Positions 38,161 to 51,685 of a DNA stretch of 64,000 bases are shown in pieces (positions within the stretch are counted from its first letter, which is position 1; each line of letters starts with the position of its first letter). The stretch is from a virus. The notes under the pieces were generated by a model. The model saw nothing but the letters and a program-made list of their open reading frames with translations, was not told the DNA's origin and made no database searches. Where the stretch lies: the IMG/VR virus record IMGVR_UViG_3300040758_000214, positions 79,061 to 143,060 of that record. One strand, written 5' to 3'. Made by a program: the position numbers and the translations under genes.

Positions 38161-39384
38161 CTATTTTGAAGTATCCTTTTTTCTTGTTTCAATAAGAATG
38201 TTATAAAATTTCTCAGTATAATTTTTATCTTTCATAAGATCAATCTGTAATTTTGTGTAATATTTAAATTCATCTGAAGTTCTATCACAACCATCAATTT
38301 GTAATACAAATATAGAAGCTGTATCTACAGGAACATCAGTTAAGAATTTAATAATATTTTTAAGTTCATCTTCTTTAACTTGAGGTTTACTTGTAACTAA
38401 AAATGTTGAAAAAGATACCATTATATCTCCAAGACTGGCATTATCTTTTTCTTCAACCATTTGTAGTATTTTATTTCTAACTTTTTTATCATAGTCATAG
38501 AAAATATCTTTTGGATTAATTCCCTTTTTCTCTTTAATGAAATCTACTAATAATCTTGTTTTATGAATATTTAATAATCCAGATAATAATATTTCTATAT
38601 CATCTAAATTTTCTTTAACTCCTCCATTCAATTCATAATTCCATAAAATATTAGAAGCTCTTTCATAAGATGCAGGATTTGCATACACTGATCCCAATTT
38701 TTGAACTTCATAATCATAGAGATAATTAGGATGAGTTTGAATAAACTCAATTATGTATGGATGGAAATTTGCAGAAATTCCATATTTTAAAAAATCTTCA
38801 ACTGATACTTCTGTATATATATGAAGCATTCTCCTTAAGCCAGCCGCATCTTCTATAGTATCAACACTATATTCTTGATCATCAGGGTTATCAAGAGCAA
38901 CAACAAACCAACCTTTTGGAAAATCCATTAAATGCAATTTATTTTCATTTTGGACTTGCCATAATAATTGCTGCAACGAATGATCTCCCCTATTACATTC
39001 ATCAATGACAAATAAACCAAAACTATTTGGATCTTTTGGAACAAAATCTGAATACAACATTTTGAATGATGTTTTTCCATTATCAATAATTGGGAATGGA
39101 ATAATAAAATCATCTCTTGAAAGGACCGGAGATTTTATTATCTTAGTTTCAAATTTAACTTTTAAAATTTCTGATAATTCATTAGCAATTTGACTACAAA
39201 TTTGTGTCTTACCTACACCTGCTGGGCCAATAATATGAAATGCTTGTTTTTCTATATCTCTTCCTTGTTCCCAAGATTTCATTGTATTTATAATATTTGT
39301 CTTTATAAGTGATTTAATTTTAGAAATTGTTGCAACTGAAATGTTCAATCTTTCAAAGTATTTTTGTTCGTTGGCCTTGCTCAC
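38161..39384 (-). CDS. MoxR-like AAA+ ATPase
   Basis: GPAGVGKT, VIDECNR, ALDNP, LRR; paired with VWA protein. Confidence 0.85.
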   Translation of the reverse strand: MSKANEQKYFERLNISVATISKIKSLIKTNIINTMKSWEQGRDIEKQAFHIIGPAGVGKTQICSQIANELSEILKVKFETKIIKSPVLSRDDFIIPFPIIDNGKTSFKMLYSDFVPKDPNSFGLFVIDECNRGDHSLQQLLWQVQNENKLHLMDFPKGWFVVALDNPDDQEYSVDTIEDAAGLRRMLHIYTEVSVEDFLKYGISANFHPYIIEFIQTHPNYLYDYEVQKLGSVYANPASYERASNILWNYELNGGVKENLDDIEILLSGLLNIHKTRLLVDFIKEKKGINPKDIFYDYDKKVRNKILQMVEEKDNASLGDIMVSFSTFLVTSKPQVKEDELKNIIKFLTDVPVDTASIFVLQIDGCDRTSDEFKYYTKLQIDLMKDKNYTEKFYNILIETRKKDTSK

Positions 39385-41426: not shown

Positions 41427-42179
41427 TTAGACCATTATTGAATTATAATGGTCATGAATTAGATTTATTGGTATTTCTAATTTGTATGTATTTCTTAGTC
41501 CTAAGACTAATTCTTTTGGAAGAGTATTCTTTTTCATAATATTTAAAAAATTATCATGGTTAAAAATAATACAACTCTTTTTAATCTCTTGATAATCATT
41601 AATTCTATGATATTGTTTCCTTCCTTTATCTATTGGATAATTGTATAAATGTTTTAATATATTGATGCAATCAATTTTTGTATGTTTTCCTATATGTTTT
41701 CTAAAAGATTTTTTATCTCCATTTAAAATATGAAAAGTATCAGTTCTTCCTAAGGAATGTGATATTAAATCTGATACTTTATTTCTATATTTTATAGATA
41801 TATTTTCTAAAGATTCTTCATCTCTTTCAAAAAGAAACTTTAAAATAATTCTTTTAGTTCTTGAGTTATTAATTCTTCTATTTTTCAAAATTAAAAGATT
41901 CTTTAAACTTTTTTCTATATCATCTTTTCTAAGAATTTCCATAATAATTCTCATCTCATATTCATCATTACTATGGTCAACTTTATTATGATTGTCTAAA
42001 AGTTTATAAATCATTATTCCCTTTAATGAACTATCTAAAGGAAGAAGCATTGATGATATAAAAGTAGATCTATTGTATAATAAAAATCGATCCAAAATAT
42101 CATCAATTTCATTGTTAATTCCAACCTCACATAATATTTTTACAAAATCAAAAGCATCACAATTCATAACCGCTCCCAT
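41427..42179 (-). CDS. hypothetical protein
   Basis: 250-aa helical ORF. Confidence 0.6.
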   Translation of the reverse strand: MGAVMNCDAFDFVKILCEVGINNEIDDILDRFLLYNRSTFISSMLLPLDSSLKGIMIYKLLDNHNKVDHSNDEYEMRIIMEILRKDDIEKSLKNLLILKNRRINNSRTKRIILKFLFERDEESLENISIKYRNKVSDLISHSLGRTDTFHILNGDKKSFRKHIGKHTKIDCINILKHLYNYPIDKGRKQYHRINDYQEIKKSCIIFNHDNFLNIMKKNTLPKELVLGLRNTYKLEIPINLIHDHYNSIMV

Positions 42180-42483
42180 TTAAATTTATTTAATTCTATA
42201 TGGGAATCGAAAAAATAAATCACTTTTCCGACGGATCAGAGGAATAACCAATTTTTTTATTAAACGAATTACTAAACTTAGTAGCATTTATTGGTTATCC
42301 TATTGGAATTTATATTTATTTGTTCTATTATTTTATGGATATTAGATTTGTAAATATCACAGTATATTACAAAAAGTATATCCATAAAATTATAATAAAG
42401 GAGTTTTGAAATGTAACTTTTATATCAATACTCTAATCTTAAAGTTCACATTTCAGTTTTCCTTTTTATCCTAAAATTTTAAG

Positions 42484-42835
42484 GTGGAGGGAAGAGATAG
42501 CCTTCTCTTCCCCCCCGTTCGAGTAAATTTTCCATTATCTTTATCATAGATAATATCCAATAACGATTAGAAATCTTTCGTTGAATGTATAATCTCAAGA
42601 TAATAAGCCAACGCACTACCACTGTGCTACACCCCGATAAAATTTTTTTTGGCCGGGGCGAATGGACTCGAACCATCGTATTTGGGCAACTTTTTTGGAT
42701 TAATACACCAGCTAATTAAAGTCTATTCTTTTCTGAATTTGTGGGTCGAAAGTCTGAATTTAAAGATAATCCCAAAGACTTATAACTACTGTATGCTGTG
42801 GGAGATTAAAGATAATGATAAGTTTGACCCAATCA
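42484..42835 (-). ncRNA. permuted tRNA-like RNA (T-arm/acceptor-CCA precedes acceptor/D-arm)
   Basis: Minus strand: GATGG-TTCGAGT-CCATT-CGCCCCG-G-CCA (42677-42650), 13-nt A/T spacer, CGGGGTG-TA-GCAC-AGTGGTA-GTGC (42636-42613); acceptor strands fully complementary; ends at hairpin 42490-42511. Confidence 0.75.
42490..42511 (-). terminator. hairpin closing the permuted RNA transcript
   Basis: GGAAGAGA / TCTCTTCC inverted repeat. Confidence 0.55.
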
Positions 42836-42839
42836 AATC

Positions 42840-43589
42840 TTAAACACCATGAATATATGAAAATATCTTGGCACCAATTTCATCTTGAACTATTTCTTGA
42901 CAATTTGCTTGTTGCCTTGCTTTCTTGATAGACATGATTAGTTTATCAAGTCTTCCAATTATCAGAGATTTCTCAGCTGGAGTTAACATTCCACTATATT
43001 TGGTAGTTTGCCATTTTCCAGTCGCCACTTGTTCTTCCCATTTTTCAACCTGCGCTGGGTGTTTATCAGTGGGAGGAACTAAAACATGATGTTTGAAGGC
43101 TTTAGCCGTCTTTATAGTTTCTTCGGGATACTTTGTTTTATAAACTCCTTTTCCAATGGTTGTATCTTCTTCCCATGAAATACCAGGAGCCAGAGTTGGA
43201 ATAGCATCATACATCACTCTGAGCTCATTAAGTCTTGATTCCATGTTAAGCAAATATGTAGCAGGAGCATTATTGACTATAGCAATTCCATCAACAACAA
43301 CATCTGCCACAGCCTGCTGGTTTGTTTTTTCTTTTTGAAGTAATGCATCAAAATATCTTCCAACTGTTTCTGATACATAGTCCAGTTTAGCATGAACTGT
43401 AGTGACTATTTCTCGATGCTCAGCTCCAATTACTCCTTGTTGATCTTCATCTTTAAACATTATGAGTAGCTTGTCATATCCACTGAAATGTTCAGGTTTC
43501 TTAAAGGTAGATGTTGCTTCTGCAACTAACTTGTCAGAAACACCTTTCAAAGATCCTTCAACTGCAAGTAATTCATGTAATTTTCCCAT
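42840..43589 (-). CDS. conserved hypothetical protein (MGKLHELLAVE family)
   Basis: Well-formed 249-aa ORF with 'PATYLL.ME..L', 'TDKHPAQV', 'SGMLT...K...R...L...IKKAR..AN'. Confidence 0.8.
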   Translation of the reverse strand: MGKLHELLAVEGSLKGVSDKLVAEATSTFKKPEHFSGYDKLLIMFKDEDQQGVIGAEHREIVTTVHAKLDYVSETVGRYFDALLQKEKTNQQAVADVVVDGIAIVNNAPATYLLNMESRLNELRVMYDAIPTLAPGISWEEDTTIGKGVYKTKYPEETIKTAKAFKHHVLVPPTDKHPAQVEKWEEQVATGKWQTTKYSGMLTPAEKSLIIGRLDKLIMSIKKARQQANCQEIVQDEIGAKIFSYIHGV

Positions 43590-43625: not shown

Positions 43626-43769
43626 TTATTTTATTTCTATTATCGCAATTACTTTATCATCTACAATTTTTGTGTCAATAACTTTAATATCACGCGATGC
43701 ATCAGTATTAAAAAATAAATTCAACGCTTTAACATTTTCAGCATTTGTTATCTCACGTTCTTTAATCAT
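43626..43769 (-). CDS. small hypothetical protein (47 aa)
   Basis: AGGAGG RBS; MIKEREITNAENVKALNLFF... Confidence 0.5.
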   Translation of the reverse strand: MIKEREITNAENVKALNLFFNTDASRDIKVIDTKIVDDKVIAIIEIK

Positions 43770-43800: not shown

Positions 43801-43877
43801 TGGTCCGGGTTACTGGATTTGAACCAATGGCCCTCTGCGCCCAAGGCAGATGCGCTACCAGACTGCGCTAAACCCGG
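43801..43877 (-). tRNA. tRNA-Pro(UGG)
   Basis: Cloverleaf CCGGGTT...TCTGC-CTTGGGC-GCAGA...TTCAAAT...AACCCGG-A-CCA. Confidence 0.95.
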
Positions 43878-43894
43878 ATAAATACTTAATTTTA

Positions 43895-44250
43895 TCCCCA
43901 CCCCTACCTTGGGAATTGGATCGTTTCATCAAAGTCCATGTGGGTATTCCAAGGACGGCTCCACCGAAATTGGCATCCCGGCTTCATTGCCTCCCCACTA
44001 TCCTATAATGGATCATTCTGATGATTAGGGTATAGAATATCAACCGGTCTCAATTTCTACTTTTCGACTAAGATGGTGGAGTCGAAATATTTACTACCCC
44101 GATTTGTCAACCCTTTTAGGTCGATGGCTGCCAATACCGGTCTATTGTCAAGGGTCTGACTTAGATCGACATTTGATCATGAGCTTTGCGCCGTTGTTAC
44201 AAGGCACGCTCTGACGATGGGGTGTAATTTAATCATACCCACACAAGGAC
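43895..44250 (-). ncRNA. candidate large structured ncRNA (~350 nt)
   Basis: GC-richer ORF-free segment; terminal CACCCC/GGGGTG pairing, internal hairpins, promoter motif upstream. Confidence 0.55.
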
Positions 44251-44317
44251 AATGATATGATTATAGAAATGAATGTTGAATTCCATGATCTAAACTTTAA
44301 AACCCTTCATTCTAAAA

Positions 44318-44332
44318 ATTAATATATATAGC
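44318..44332 (-). promoter_or_regulatory. putative phage promoter GCTATATATATTAAT
   Basis: Motif recurs at 53179, 53316 and 54694, always intergenic and in the same orientation. Confidence 0.65.
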
Positions 44333-44353
44333 AACTCAAACTATAATGGATTT

Positions 44354-44641
44354 TTACATCCACTGTTTTTTCTTCTTTGTACGTTTCCATCCTTTAATTC
44401 TTCGTTTAGAAACAAGTTCATCATCCCAAGCATTAGGAAGATTAACATGTGATCTTCTCAATCTCAATTTAATTTTATATTCTTTACATTCTTCTAAAAC
44501 ATCAAACCATTTTTTTCTTTCTTGTGTAGTTTTAGGATGCCTCATGTAATGACAACAAGAATTATGATAATGACTAATTCCAGGGACTGGACCTCTTCTA
44601 AAGATAAACTTCAATCCTCTTCTTGTATAAAAAACTTTCAT
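44354..44641 (-). CDS. small basic phage protein
   Basis: RHPKTTQERK...R.RR...LPNAWDD...KGWK..K..KQW. Confidence 0.7.
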   Translation of the reverse strand: MKVFYTRRGLKFIFRRGPVPGISHYHNSCCHYMRHPKTTQERKKWFDVLEECKEYKIKLRLRRSHVNLPNAWDDELVSKRRIKGWKRTKKKKQWM

Positions 44642-44740
44642 CTTTAACCTCCATTAAGTATAATGAACTTAATGGAAGAATGTTGGTTTATACATATTCA
44701 AATCTCCTATAGTTTATATTGTTCTAAAAATTTTTATTAT

Positions 44741-44974
44741 TTACTTATATAATGGAGTTCCATCATTACATCTCCAACTTCCATTTGCAATTAAAATTAA
44801 ATCTATAATTGTCCCGATAAAAAACCATCCGCATGTCAGAAGATAGATAACACCAGACCCAAGTTTTCCGGTATATAATCTATGCAATCCTGCTATTCCA
44901 AAAAATCCAATAAAACAAAATACAAGAGCTAACCAAAAAAGTTTCTTACTTTCTATTACAGGTTGAAGTTCCAT
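44741..44974 (-). CDS. TM2-domain membrane protein
   Basis: GLHRLYTGK.GSGVIYLLT.G.F.IG.IIDLILI. Confidence 0.9.
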   Translation of the reverse strand: MELQPVIESKKLFWLALVFCFIGFFGIAGLHRLYTGKLGSGVIYLLTCGWFFIGTIIDLILIANGSWRCNDGTPLYK

Positions 44975-45001
44975 TATTTAATTTCCTTTCTGTATAAAAT
45001 A

Positions 45002-45077
45002 TGGTAGGGGATGTCTGACTCGGACAGACGTATGCCAGATTCAAAATCTGGTGCGTTAACCACTTCGCCAATCCCCA
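45002..45077 (-). tRNA. tRNA-Gln(UUG), atypical T-loop
   Basis: CCAGA-TTTTGAA-TCTGG anticodon arm; T-loop TCCGAGT; U1:U72 mismatch; CCA encoded. Confidence 0.85.
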
Positions 45078-45087
45078 ATAAAAATTT

Positions 45088-45204
45088 TGGCGTATTCTTA
45101 TGTTCAGACTGAGAGCCGTTGTTGTCTATCCAAAGTACTGGAATCTTTATAAGACAGCTTCACCGCAATCTCTAGTAATAAGTAACCTGCATGTTTATAC
45201 ACCA
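45088..45204 (-). ncRNA. candidate rod-shaped small RNA between tRNAs
   Basis: TGGTGTAT / ATACGCCA terminal stem plus inner complementary blocks. Confidence 0.45.
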
Positions 45205-45211
45205 AATCATG

Positions 45212-45283
45212 CTCCGGAGGAAAGATTCGAACTTCCGACCTGAGAGTTAACAGCTCCCGGCTCCACCACTGAGCTACTCCGGA
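45212..45283 (-). tRNA. tRNA-Asn(GUU)
   Basis: TCCGGAG acceptor, GGGAG-CTGTTAA-CTCTC, TTCGAAT; CCA not fully encoded. Confidence 0.92.
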
Positions 45284-47594: not shown

Positions 47595-47774
47595 TCAGTG
47601 CCCAAGGAATCGAACCTCGTACCTCCCACATGTGTTGGATAACGTCCAGCTCATTTTCAAAATAAATTTCTATCATTGGCCTAATGATCATCCTTCAAAT
47701 TTACTCACAAATCCTTTCATACATCCTCCCCGAAATTAATCGGATGGTCGCTCTCCCATCTGAGCTAGACACTG
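47595..47774 (-). ncRNA. tRNA-like RNA with ~110-nt insertion in place of the anticodon loop
   Basis: Acceptor CAGTGTC/GGCACTG-A, D-arm GCTC-AGATGGGA-GAGC, T-arm CGAGG-TTCGATT-CCTTG. Confidence 0.75.
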
Positions 47775-47782
47775 ATAAAATA

Positions 47783-47852
47783 TTTCCTGAATGGATGTCT
47801 CCCAGGTCCTCGGGCCCCCAGTATATTTAATATACTCATCCATTCAGGAAAA
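47783..47852. ncRNA. candidate small structured RNA
   Basis: 15-bp perfect terminal inverted repeat TTTCCTGAATGGATG / CATCCATTCAGGAAA enclosing small hairpins. Confidence 0.5.
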
Positions 47853-47971
47853 CTTAATATTTTAACTTCACCCCTGCTTTAGATTCCGCTAAAGCTTTAA
47901 CGGACTGGTCGTCCGAACCATTTGTCTCGCCAGAGTTATTTGTGAATTATTGTTCACAAAACATATCACTG

Positions 47972-48046
47972 GGTACTTGAACACCAGCTCCCTTCACACC
48001 AGTCCTCGGTTAACGACCGGGAATCGAACCCGTACTATCGAATACC
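47972..48046 (-). ncRNA. YrlA-like (Y RNA-type) tRNA mimic candidate
   Basis: Closing stem GGTATTCGA/TCAAGTACC around T-arm CGGG-TTCGATT-CCCG, GTC...GAC hairpin, D-like TGGTGTGAAGGGAGC. Confidence 0.5.
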
Positions 48047-50470: not shown

Positions 50471-50611
50471 AATTCTCCTTTTTAAAATAATTGTACTATT
50501 TGGTAATAATACATCCCCGTCTCTATCTTATCGCTGATTGAGTCAGCCCCAAGTCTGGTGGGTTAACGAGAATAACATAATCAACCTCTCACAGTTGATC
50601 TTACTATAAAA

Positions 50612-50690
50612 TGGTTGCTGAGGAATGATTTGAACATCCGACATGCGGGATTAATGGACCCGTTGCTCTACCTGACTGAGCTACTCAGCA
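50612..50690 (-). tRNA. atypical tRNA with 9-nt anticodon loop (TCCATTAAT; Met-CAU-like, identity undetermined)
   Basis: TGCTGAG/CTCAGCA-A-CCA, D-arm GCTC-AGTCAGGTA-GAGC, CGGG-loop-CCCG, TTCAAAT. Confidence 0.75.
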
Positions 50691-50756: not shown

Positions 50757-50832
50757 TGGCGATGGTGATGGGGATCAAACCCCCGACTTTTGGTTAGACA
50801 GACCAATACTCTATCAACTGAGTTACACCGCC
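50757..50832 (-). tRNA. tRNA-Asp(GUC), divergent
   Basis: TTGGT-CTGTCTA-ACCAA; G73-CCA; C3:A70 mismatch, T-loop TTTGATC, D-loop lacks GG. Confidence 0.8.
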
Positions 50833-51381: not shown

Positions 51382-51576
51382 TTAATAAAACCTTTCTGGA
51401 ATCCACTTTGGACAAAATGTACTTGTCATTCTAGTTCCACAAGGTGAATCCCACAAAACAGTTCTCCAACCTCTTACTTCAATTATTTTCATTGGCATAT
51501 TAGTGAATGAATCAATCATCCAATTATGCCAAACTTTACTAAAAATCCAAATTACAAATTTATTTTTAGTTCTCAT
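51382..51576 (-). CDS. hypothetical protein
   Basis: 64-aa ORF with RBS. Confidence 0.5.
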   Translation of the reverse strand: MRTKNKFVIWIFSKVWHNWMIDSFTNMPMKIIEVRGWRTVLWDSPCGTRMTSTFCPKWIPERFY

Positions 51577-51601
51577 ATTTAATTCCTTAAAAATATTTTA
51601 A

Positions 51602-51685
51602 TGGTGGGTAATCAAGGATTCGAACCTCGGTGCATTTCTGACCTGATCTACAGTCAGGCGCCTTCAACCACTCGGCCAATTACCC
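51602..51685 (-). tRNA. tRNA-Tyr(GUA)
   Basis: GGGTAAT/ATTACCC-A-CCA, CCTGA-CTGTAGA-TCAGG, long variable arm, TTCGAAT. Confidence 0.95.

What the first reader, a model, noticed from the sequence alone, without database searches (positions are those of the whole stretch)
42484..43589. Circularly permuted, CCA-bearing tRNA-like RNA coupled to a conserved unknown protein
Seen on the minus strand, starting right after the stop codon of the 249-aa gene: a ~150-nt domain closed by TTGGGTCAAAC/GTTGCCCAA, then a T-arm and 3' acceptor strand CGCCCCG-G-CCA, a 13-nt A/T spacer, then the matching 5' acceptor strand CGGGGTG and a canonical D-arm. A ~100-nt tail and a terminal hairpin follow. There is no anticodon arm. 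The heptamer ATTATCT recurs four times in the flanks (42548, 42598, 42764, 42810). Known: this 3'-half-first order occurs in two-piece tmRNA and YrlA Y RNAs, but tmRNA lacks a D-stem and has G3:U70, and YrlA is much shorter. Inference: RNase P plus 3' trimming would give a two-piece, potentially chargeable tRNA mimic whose repeat-bearing arms bind the upstream protein, i.e. an undescribed ribonucleoprotein.
Basis: partly seen in the sequence, partly recalled or inferred. Interest (0 to 1): 0.85.

Follow-up and report, generated by a model that had tools for sequence, protein, structure and literature searches.

The report
Phage tRNA-mimic RNA partnered with DUF7873
Right after an unstudied phage gene (DUF7873) lies a roughly 355-base folded RNA built around a back-to-front, anticodon-less tRNA look-alike; the gene and RNA travel together in about 70 other phages, so they probably form an undescribed RNA-protein particle related to bacterial Y RNAs.

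Summary
On the minus strand, just after the stop of a 249-aa gene (Pfam DUF7873), lie a T-arm, a 7-nt 3' acceptor strand, G-CCA, a 13-nt spacer, the complementary 5' acceptor strand and a D-arm.

A covariance model of this core scores at least 46 bits downstream of DUF7873 in 70 of 75 evaluable loci, and in 7 of 8 cultured phages tested. On 40 matches, 39 of them outside the model's seed, 95.8% of cells pair and all 20 pairs covary.

- The conserved 5' hairpin is TGGGTC/GACCCA, around a loop of six-base-periodic repeats.
- GCCCAA pairs with TTGGC as an anticodon-stem equivalent.

No Rfam family reaches threshold (YrlA 24 bits against 69). My model nevertheless also finds the tandem Y RNAs beside a Ro60 gene in one jumbo phage, so the tRNA-like head is of the YrlA class. 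Ro60 is absent from this record and from two complete carrier genomes, and the Ro-binding motif is missing.

DUF7873 has no known fold and is predicted to form a symmetric dimer.

The two-piece idea has precedent in M. smegmatis YrlA. Aminoacylation is not supported. Binding and function are inferred only.

This scan has met the same pair before on other DNA (145 notes).

The parts
42840..43589 (-). 249-aa gene, member of Pfam DUF7873 (PF25283)
   Evidence: Pfam E 2.2e-77, 260 bits against a cut-off of 27. No PHROG, NCBIfam or PADLOC family. AF2 pLDDT 92.4 with no convincing fold match.
43651..43678 (-). Sigma-70-like promoter candidate upstream of the gene (TTGACA-16-TAAAGT with TG)
   Evidence: Consensus scan, 10 of 12 matches. 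A consensus match only; function not shown.
42826..42831 (-). P1 5' strand TGGGTC, 9 nt after the stop codon; AA at 42823-42824 can extend it past one A x C mismatch
   Evidence: Pairs with 42742-42747. Across 41 loci the locus's own 6-mer finds a perfect complement upstream in 49%, against 11% for other loci's 6-mers.
42748..42825 (-). P1 loop with repeats; two copies of ATTATCTTTAA at 42806-42816 and 42760-42770
   Evidence: In 41 homologues this region shows lag-6 and lag-12 periodicity (z 7.4 and 4.7) and no lag-3 signal. The periodicity is weak in the window itself.
42733..42747 (-). P1 3' strand GACCCA followed by the conserved CAAATTCAG segment
   Evidence: An HMM of this motif finds it in 41 of 52 loci at E below 0.5.
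42697..42720 (-). Linker with a conserved AAUUAGCUGGUGUA-type motif and the P3 5' strand GTATTAATC (42698-42706)
   Evidence: Alignment A4. P3 pairs with GATTATAC at 42587-42594, 8 bp with one bulge. P3 was read from the sequence and not tested for covariation.
42682..42687 (-). Anticodon-stem equivalent, 3'-side strand GCCCAA (one bulged C); ATAC at 42678-42681 is the variable-loop equivalent
   Evidence: Helix 1 of the model: 83.6% of cells paired and all 4 pairs change on both sides.
42661..42677 (-). T-arm GATGG / TTCGAGT / CCATT
   Evidence: helix 2, 99.5% paired.
42650..42660 (-). 3' acceptor strand CGCCCCG, discriminator G, CCA
   Evidence: Helix 3 is 100% paired in 40 matches (39 outside the seed) and all 7 pairs covary. 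CCA is present in 43 of 52 modules.
42637..42649 (-). A/T spacer ending in UAU; the predicted RNase P site lies between 42637 and 42636
   Evidence: The -1 base is U in 33 of 52 and UAU is found in 26 of 52. Cleavage is inferred, not shown.
42630..42636 (-). 5' acceptor strand CGGGGTG
42613..42627 (-). D-arm GCAC / AGTGGTA / GTGC with G18 G19; U8 A9 lie at 42628-42629
   Evidence: Helix 4 is 95.6% paired.
42607..42611 (-). Anticodon-stem equivalent, 5'-side strand TTGGC
42593..42606 (-). Conserved motif UUAUUAUCUUGAGA after the D-arm
   Evidence: Identical in Rhizobium phage RHph_Y65, whose protein is 47% identical. UUAGCnnGAAA in other loci.
42534..42554 (-). Tail hairpin ATTATCT / AGATAAT
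   Evidence: Read from the sequence. Conservation not tested.
42486..42516 (-). Terminal 12-bp hairpin with hexaloop AGGCUA
   Evidence: AGGNUA-type loops in 10 of 20 terminal hairpins that a crude finder recovered in other loci. Not scored as an intrinsic terminator, because the T-run starts 9 nt after the stem.

Best explanation
Window 42486-42839 (minus strand) encodes one structured non-coding RNA of about 355 nt, made with or just behind the DUF7873 mRNA. Its core is a YrlA-class tRNA mimic: T-arm, 7-bp acceptor helix closed by a linker that carries G-CCA, D-arm, and an anticodon-stem equivalent that opens into the rest of the RNA.

I propose that the RNA and DUF7873 form a ribonucleoprotein independent of any phage Ro60. 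DUF7873, probably as a symmetric dimer, would hold the family-specific parts: the P1 hairpin with its six-base repeat track, the conserved linker motifs and the AGGNUA hairpin. The intact tRNA elbow and acceptor end would be displayed to tRNA-recognising host factors.

The 7-bp acceptor, U at -1 and the encoded RCCA make the linker a good bacterial RNase P site. In this phage the RNA is therefore probably cut there and trimmed to CCA, as M. smegmatis YrlA is. That would give two pieces held together by the acceptor, P2 and P3 helices.

The module lies in or next to the phage tRNA gene array, which suggests a role in tRNA or RNA surveillance, or in countering tRNA-directed host defence.

Shown: the RNA's conservation and structure, its linkage to the gene, and the absence of Ro60. 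Inferred: binding, processing and role.
For: - Linkage: R1 scores at least 46 bits on the gene's strand in 70 of 75 evaluable loci: within about 600 nt after the stop in most, up to 1.6 kb in one (L061), and in L078 upstream of the partial gene match. The proteins there are 39-70% identical.
- Linkage in cultured phages: found in RHph_Y65, KpLz-2_45, Vibrio D472, RSL1, Mimi, Phendrix and Fryberger, down to 30% identity. The intergenic gaps there are unannotated.
- No other protein family is conserved around the gene.
- P1 starts 1-24 nt after the stop in most loci.
- Structure: 95.8% of cells paired against 59% when shuffled and 34-49% when slid. All 20 pairs change on both sides.
- Specificity: in whole phage records the strong R1 hits lie only beside DUF7873 or beside TROVE.
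- The Ro60-linked RNAs of record G001 share the head but have a different closing stem and no P1 or hexamer domain.
- Ro60 independence: no TROVE in the own record or in 4 of 5 large carrier records, two of them 100% complete.
- The GNCGAAN0-1G motif is absent.
- Processing: precedent in PMC4201824. U at -1 in 33 of 52.
- CCA is kept in 43 of 52 modules against 82 of 127 ordinary tRNAs. It is kept in 12 of 13 loci whose ordinary tRNAs lack it.
- Dimer: complex prediction supports self-association but does not show it. Score 0.70, best of 3 controls 0.01. The mark was reached by 20 of 30 proteins solved as pairs of one chain and by 1 of 23 solved as single chains. Runs agree in at least 93% of contacts and partner pLDDT is at least 81. 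The counts hold only roughly, because my own alignment and four copies were used.
Against: - There is no transcript, binding or cleavage datum.
- DUF7873 has no recognisable RNA-binding domain or known fold.
- A two-fold dimer does not obviously explain a six-base repeat track.
- The periodicity is weak in this window's own RNA.
- Five of 75 loci and the Microcoleus phage lack a strong match.
- About a third of homologues close the acceptor with a longer hairpin through the CCA position, and nine lack CCA. Cleavage therefore cannot be universal.
- Host Ro60 could still be the partner.
- An earlier check in this scan priced the 'protein binds this RNA' reading at 22 in 100. I could only partly re-test its grounds.
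Confidence: 0.5

Rival explanations
1. The RNA works without binding DUF7873. It would be a free tRNA-mimic decoy or sponge for host factors that recognise the tRNA elbow and acceptor end, such as tRNA-directed nucleases or CCA-modifying toxins. Alternatively it is an RNase P 'punctuation' and stability element for the operon. DUF7873 would be merely co-expressed, or would act on the same host target.
For: - The intact elbow and acceptor features, with CCA kept more often than in neighbouring tRNAs.
- The location inside or beside tRNA arrays.
- DUF7873 has no RNA-binding signature.
Against: - A plain decoy or processing signal would not need about 250 nt of conserved extra structure (P1, repeat track, linker motifs, AGGNUA hairpin).
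- It would not need to stay glued to one gene across phages of proteobacteria, actinobacteria and others, with no other conserved neighbour.
Confidence: 0.25
2. It is an ordinary Ro60-type Y RNA (YrlA) that uses the host's, or an unsequenced phage, Ro60/Rsr. DUF7873 would be an accessory factor.
For: - Best Rfam match is YrlA, with the same topology.
- My model also finds genuine Ro60-adjacent RNAs.
- The own record is only 46% complete.
Against: - YrlA scores 24 bits against a gathering score of 69.
- No Ro-binding GNCGAAN0-1G motif.
- No TROVE in two complete carrier genomes.
- In the one phage with both systems, the Ro60-linked RNAs have a different closing stem and lie about 200 kb from the DUF7873 module.
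Confidence: 0.1
3. It is a two-piece tmRNA-like or otherwise aminoacylated RNA that enters the ribosome, with the repeat region read as a tag.
For: - Permuted order with CCA, as in two-piece tmRNA.
- Weak local hits to permuted tmRNA models (13-21 bits).
Against: - ARAGORN finds no tmRNA.
- Pair 3:70 is G-U in only 1 of 52.
- The discriminator is variable.
- A full D-stem is present.
- The repeat region has no 3-nt periodicity, and the open frame I traced by hand is not conserved between loci.
Confidence: 0.03
4. It is a chance or decayed arrangement: remnants of two tRNA genes, or the T-arm of one tRNA followed by the D-arm of the next.
For: Tandem tRNAs do give false matches of up to about 49 bits with my model.
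Against: - The two acceptor strands are complementary 7/7 here and in 40 of 40 matches, 39 of them outside the seed, with different sequences.
- There is no upstream D or anticodon arm.
- The window scores 86.8 bits.
Confidence: 0.01

Closest known systems
YrlA-class bacterial and phage Y RNAs with Ro60/Rsr (Rfam RF02553; Chen et al. 2014, PMC4201824)
   Same: - The same permuted tRNA-like module: T-arm, loop-closed acceptor helix and D-arm, with the anticodon-stem position leading into a stem formed by the flanks.
- Encoded next to its presumed protein partner on the same strand.
- M. smegmatis YrlA, with a 7-bp acceptor, is cut by RNase P and carries CCA, giving two pieces.
- My model built on DUF7873-linked RNAs also detects the tandem RNAs behind a phage Ro60 gene.
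   Different: - The partner gene is DUF7873, not a TROVE protein.
- Ro60 is absent from complete carrier genomes.
- There is no GNCGAAN0-1G motif.
- The RNA is about three times longer, with a P1 hairpin holding six-base repeats, conserved linker motifs and an AGGNUA hairpin.
- CCA is genomically encoded.
- The Rfam model scores 24 bits against 69.
Two-piece (circularly permuted) tmRNA of alpha-proteobacteria, cyanobacteria and beta-proteobacteria (Rfam RF04321, RF01850, RF01851)
   Same: The gene order puts the T-arm, 3' acceptor strand and CCA before the 5' acceptor strand. The intervening segment is removed to give two base-paired pieces.
   Different: - No G3:U70.
- A true D-stem is present.
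- No conserved tag reading frame or resume codon.
- No pseudoknots found.
- Not called by ARAGORN.
- Only 13-21 bit local matches to the T-arm and acceptor region.
Circularly permuted tRNA genes of Cyanidioschyzon merolae and some green algae (recalled from the literature, not tested here)
   Same: The 3' half is encoded before the 5' half, with a linker across the acceptor ends.
   Different: Those are complete tRNAs with anticodon arms. They mature through a circular intermediate made by the eukaryotic or archaeal splicing machinery. Here there is no anticodon loop, and the flanks are large conserved domains.
Protein gene followed directly by its own guide or scaffold RNA (for example TnpB or IscB with omega RNA); an analogy only
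   Same: A structured RNA starts at or just after the 3' end of the partner's gene, and the pair moves as a unit.
   Different: No nuclease domains, no guide segment and no transposon ends were seen.

Membership tests
YrlA / Ro60-associated Y RNA | tRNA-like module in the order T-arm, closed acceptor stem, D-arm | tested here: met
   The cmscan YrlA alignment spans the full model with the same topology.
YrlA / Ro60-associated Y RNA | Reaches the Rfam RF02553 gathering score | tested here: not met
   24.1 bits in the window and 24.2 in L001, against 69. Nothing at gathering threshold in 20 further loci.
YrlA / Ro60-associated Y RNA | Encoded within about 4 kb of a Ro60/TROVE gene on the same strand (criterion of PMC4201824) | tested here: not met
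   No TROVE in the 143-kb record. None in 4 of 5 large carrier records, two of them complete. In the fifth it lies about 200 kb away.
YrlA / Ro60-associated Y RNA | GNCGAAN0-1G Ro-binding motif near the 5' end | tested here: not met
   Absent from the window RNA. Present in only 6 of 52 homologous 5' parts.
YrlA / Ro60-associated Y RNA | Bound by Ro60/Rsr | not testable with these tools
   Needs immunoprecipitation.
Two-piece tmRNA | G3:U70 alanine identity pair and a tag reading frame | tested here: not met
   Pair 3:70 is G-C here and G-U in 1 of 52. No lag-3 signal. ARAGORN is negative.
Two-piece tmRNA | Permuted order with encoded CCA | tested here: met
Canonical tRNA (RF00005 / ARAGORN) | Contiguous cloverleaf with an anticodon loop | tested here: not met
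   No call at 42484-42840 by ARAGORN or by Rfam tRNA.
DUF7873-associated tRNA-mimic RNA (unpublished; defined by this scan and by model R1) | Permuted core within about 600 nt after a DUF7873 gene on the same strand | tested here: met
   86.8 bits; the T-arm begins 162 nt after the stop.
DUF7873-associated tRNA-mimic RNA (unpublished; defined by this scan and by model R1) | Second tRNA-like head | tested here: not met
   No second T-loop or second R1 match in the window's tail. 23 of 52 relatives have a standard-order tRNA(-like) 49-69 nt (one at 93) after the D-arm. Mimi and Phendrix have two permuted heads.
Pfam DUF7873 (protein) | Full-length match above the gathering score | tested here: met
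   260.5 bits against 27; residues 1-247 on profile positions 1-242 of 244.

The most novel reading that the evidence does not exclude
DUF7873 and this RNA form a new kind of phage ribonucleoprotein. A dimeric protein of unknown fold would read a six-base repeat track and present an RNase P-processed, CCA-ended tRNA mimic. That mimic would capture or mislead tRNA-directed host machinery, such as defence nucleases, CCA-modifying toxins or tRNA repair and turnover enzymes. It would be a Ro60-independent parallel to Y RNPs, used as a counter-defence or tRNA-protection device inside phage tRNA arrays.
Probability: 0.25. Interest if true: 0.85.

Novelty: new variant of a known kind. Interest (0 to 1): 0.72.

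Why it matters
Y RNAs are so far defined by Ro60. A widespread RNA with the same tRNA-mimic head but a different, unstudied partner would show that tRNA mimicry is a reusable module for building RNPs. It would also give a function to a Pfam domain of unknown function found in phages of Rhizobium, Klebsiella, Vibrio, Ralstonia, Gordonia and Arthrobacter.

The module lies in or beside phage tRNA arrays in this window and in several of the cultured carriers (RHph_Y65, Mimi, Phendrix), so it may bear on how large phages protect or manage their own tRNA supply against host defences.

Cultured phage-host pairs carry it, so the question can be tested directly.

Tried and rejected
- Rfam at gathering threshold, on the window and on 20 loci: only tRNAs.
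- Rfam at E up to 10: sub-threshold YrlA and local tmRNA pieces. A 20-bit 'DUF2815 RNA' hit over the terminal hairpin was judged spurious, because its ATG is followed at once by TGA.
- blastn of the region against 50,697 phage records: no match.
- Fold searches with the AF2 model (Foldseek PDB and BFVD, VIA-align wide, ESM Atlas by shape and by features): only coiled-coil-type or weak ring-protein rows, no relative.
- PDB sequence profile: nothing.
- Reading the repeats as a peptide (alternating Ser/Ile/Gly and hydrophobic residues): rejected. There is no lag-3 periodicity, and frames and stops are not conserved.
- The TRAP/HutP-like ring idea for the NAG repeats: not supported by the dimer prediction and left open.
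- A naive best-stem search for P1 was too noisy. It was replaced by an HMM-anchored test.
- The 'TROVE-like' label another reader gave to the 250-aa gene at 41427-42179: no Pfam, PHROG or NCBIfam support.
- Literature searches for DUF7873, permuted tRNA plus phage, and Y RNA plus phage found no description of this pair.

Full report
**What is there**

The window is part of a 143-kb IMG/VR virus record, 46% complete by CheckV. On the minus strand a 249-aa gene (42840-43589) is a full-length member of Pfam DUF7873. It matches no PHROG, NCBIfam or PADLOC family.

From its stop codon to a hairpin at 42486-42516 runs about 355 nt that I do not read as coding; the mechanical ORF list shows only short frames there, which I take as spurious.
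- T-arm
- CGCCCCG-G-CCA
- a 13-nt A/T spacer
- CGGGGTG
- U8-A9
- a D-arm with G18 G19

. ARAGORN calls no tRNA or tmRNA here. ATTATCT is locally enriched: five copies in 283 nt, where window density predicts about 0.25.

**Is it more than chance?**

Homologues of the protein were collected: 619 by sequence search, 73 viral loci and 5 MAG loci.

A simple detector found the same order (T-arm, 7-nt strand, N, usually CCA, spacer, complementary 7-nt strand, D-arm) downstream of the gene in 52 distinct loci. All had perfect stems, and the acceptor sequences differed from locus to locus.

A covariance model (R1) was built from 34 of them.
- It scores at least 46 bits downstream of the gene in 70 of 75 loci that have enough downstream sequence.
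- The window scores 86.8 bits.
- On 40 matches (39 outside the seed, plus the window), 95.8% of cells pair, against 59% in shuffles and 34-49% with slid partners.
- The acceptor helix pairs in 40 of 40.
- All 20 pairs show changes on both sides.

Tandem tRNAs give false matches of up to about 49 bits. I therefore treated 46-50 bit hits as real only where acceptor complementarity was seen.

**Corrections to the drawn structure**

Comparison shows a 5' hairpin P1. TGGGTC at 42826-42831 pairs with GACCCA at 42742-42747 and is extended by A-U pairs past one mismatch.
- Across 41 loci, a locus's own 3' 6-mer finds a perfect upstream complement in 49%, against 11% for other loci's 6-mers.
- The partner lies 1-24 nt after the stop in most loci.
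- Compensatory variants include GGACTC/GAGTCC, GGAGG/CCTCC and TAGGGC/GCCCTA.

The P1 loop carries six-base-periodic repeats. These are NAG-type in many loci and ATC-type here. Lag 6 gives z 7.4 and lag 12 gives z 4.7, with no lag-3 signal. The periodicity is weak in this window's own copy.

GCCCAA (42682-42687) pairs with TTGGC (42607-42611), as the anticodon stem would. Its four modelled pairs covary.

Further conserved pieces:
- a linker motif
- UUAUUAUCUUGAGA after the D-arm, identical in Rhizobium phage RHph_Y65
- a terminal hairpin whose hexaloop is AGGNUA in many loci

About half of the relatives have a standard-order tRNA, or a tRNA-like element with an odd anticodon, at a constant 49-69 nt after the D-arm. 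Distant relatives (Arthrobacter phage Mimi, Gordonia phage Phendrix) have two permuted heads. This window has one head only.

**Relation to known RNAs**

No Rfam 15 family reaches its threshold. The best match is YrlA at 24 bits against 69, with the same topology.

R1 also detects at least four tandem RNAs directly behind a 560-aa TROVE/Ro60 gene in one 358-kb phage record that also carries DUF7873. The head is therefore of the YrlA class. Those Ro60-linked RNAs have a different closing stem and no P1 or repeat domain.

In whole phage records, strong R1 hits lie only next to DUF7873 or next to TROVE. TROVE is absent from the own record. It is also absent from four of five large carrier records, two of them complete. 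The Ro-binding motif GNCGAAN0-1G is absent here and is present in only 6 of 52 relatives.

The two-piece idea is not new in principle. M. smegmatis YrlA, with a 7-bp acceptor, is cut by RNase P in vivo and in vitro and carries CCA (PMC4201824).

**Processing and charging**

In favour of cleavage:
- a 7-bp acceptor
- U at -1 in 33 of 52, and UAU in 26 of 52
- CCA kept in 43 of 52 modules, against 82 of 127 neighbouring ordinary tRNAs
- CCA kept in 12 of 13 loci whose ordinary tRNAs do not encode it

Against universality: 18 of 52 spacers are longer than 20 nt, and several are hairpins that continue the acceptor helix through the CCA position, where CCA is often lost.

Charging is unsupported. 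The discriminator is U 25, G 15, A 9, C 3. Pair 3:70 is G-U once. There is no anticodon.

**The protein**

The AF2 model is confident (pLDDT 92.4). It shows four long helices and a long beta-hairpin sheet. No fold or sequence relative was found.

A four-copy prediction supports, but does not show, a symmetric homodimer.
- Score 0.70; best of 3 controls 0.01.
- The mark was reached by 20 of 30 proteins solved as pairs of one chain and by 1 of 23 solved as single chains.
- Runs agree in at least 93% of contacts, and partner pLDDT is at least 81.
- The counts hold only roughly, because my own alignment and four copies were used.

No other protein family is conserved around the gene.

The gene occurs in 75 deposited phage records, always annotated as a hypothetical protein. 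Hosts include Rhizobium, Vibrio, Klebsiella, Serratia, Ralstonia, Gordonia, Arthrobacter and cyanobacteria. In each of the eight examined, an unannotated stretch of 175-700 nt follows the gene before the next annotated feature. In several the module sits inside the tRNA array.

**Verdict**

It is a conserved, structured RNA with a YrlA-class tRNA-mimic head, coupled to DUF7873 rather than to Ro60. I could not find the pair in Rfam or in the searched literature.

That protein and RNA bind each other, that RNase P cuts the linker, and what the particle does are all inferences. I put the RNP reading at about 0.5.

The same pair has been noted many times in this scan on other DNA (145 notes in at least 84 genomes). 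A later check there priced the binding claim low. My own model-based count of linkage (70 of 75, and 7 of 8 cultured phages) is higher than the word-pattern count quoted there. However, it covers only relatives reachable from this protein.

Noticed in passing
L079:697-3279 (record G001, about 327-330 kb): A 560-aa TROVE/Ro60 gene in a 358-kb jumbo-phage record is followed by at least five tandem units of about 165 nt. Each starts GCAGCAGCGUAG and ends CUCUGC. Four of them contain a permuted tRNA-like head with CCA and UAU (39-70 bits with R1). The same phage also carries the DUF7873 module about 200 kb away.
   Followed up: partly
window 42486-42516 and the terminal hairpins of L006, L025, L030, L036, L038, L049, L054, L055, L057: The GC-rich hairpin that ends the RNA has a conserved hexaloop AGGNUA (AGGCUA in the window). 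It therefore looks like a functional element rather than only a terminator. The promoter/terminator scan does not score it as an intrinsic terminator.
   Followed up: partly
L005, L008, L012, L013, L031, L042, L049, L051, L053, L057, L060, L065 and others, 49-69 nt after the D-arm: Twenty-three of 52 relatives have a standard-order tRNA or tRNA-like element at a nearly constant distance after the permuted head. Several have improbable anticodons (ATA, ATG, ATT, or 2- or 4-base 'anticodons') or a truncated acceptor stem (L049). This suggests a second, non-decoding head. The window lacks it.
   Followed up: partly
L084 (Rhizobium phage RHph_Y65), L088 (Arthrobacter phage Mimi), L089 (Gordonia phage Phendrix); window 43801-45283: The DUF7873 module sits inside or at the edge of the phage tRNA gene array. 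In the window tRNA-Pro lies about 210 nt upstream of the gene, and tRNA-Gln and tRNA-Asn follow further up.
   Followed up: no
window 50612-50690 and 50760-50832: ARAGORN calls a tRNA-Asn with the unusual anticodon ATT at 50612-50690, which Rfam does not confirm. Rfam calls a tRNA at 50760-50832 (47 bits), which ARAGORN does not report.
   Followed up: no
window 38161-39384 (-): A 407-aa AAA+ ATPase (phrog_1297; weak AAA_5 and clamp-loader-like matches) lies four genes downstream. It is not conserved next to DUF7873 in other loci.
   Followed up: no
window 42479-42676 (-) and 42649-42843 (+): ORFs of 65 and 64 aa from the mechanical list overlap the RNA. They are probably spurious. In Vibrio phage D472 and Gordonia phage Fryberger, small 'hypothetical protein' CDSs are annotated over the equivalent RNA region.
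   Followed up: no
window 43899-44224 and 47595-48040: Other first-stage notes on this genome propose a 23S L1-stalk mimic and further tRNA-fragment RNAs here. Model R1 gives no strong hit in those stretches; the only other matches in the own record score 21-22 bits, at window 50568-50664 and 51547-51654.
   Followed up: partly
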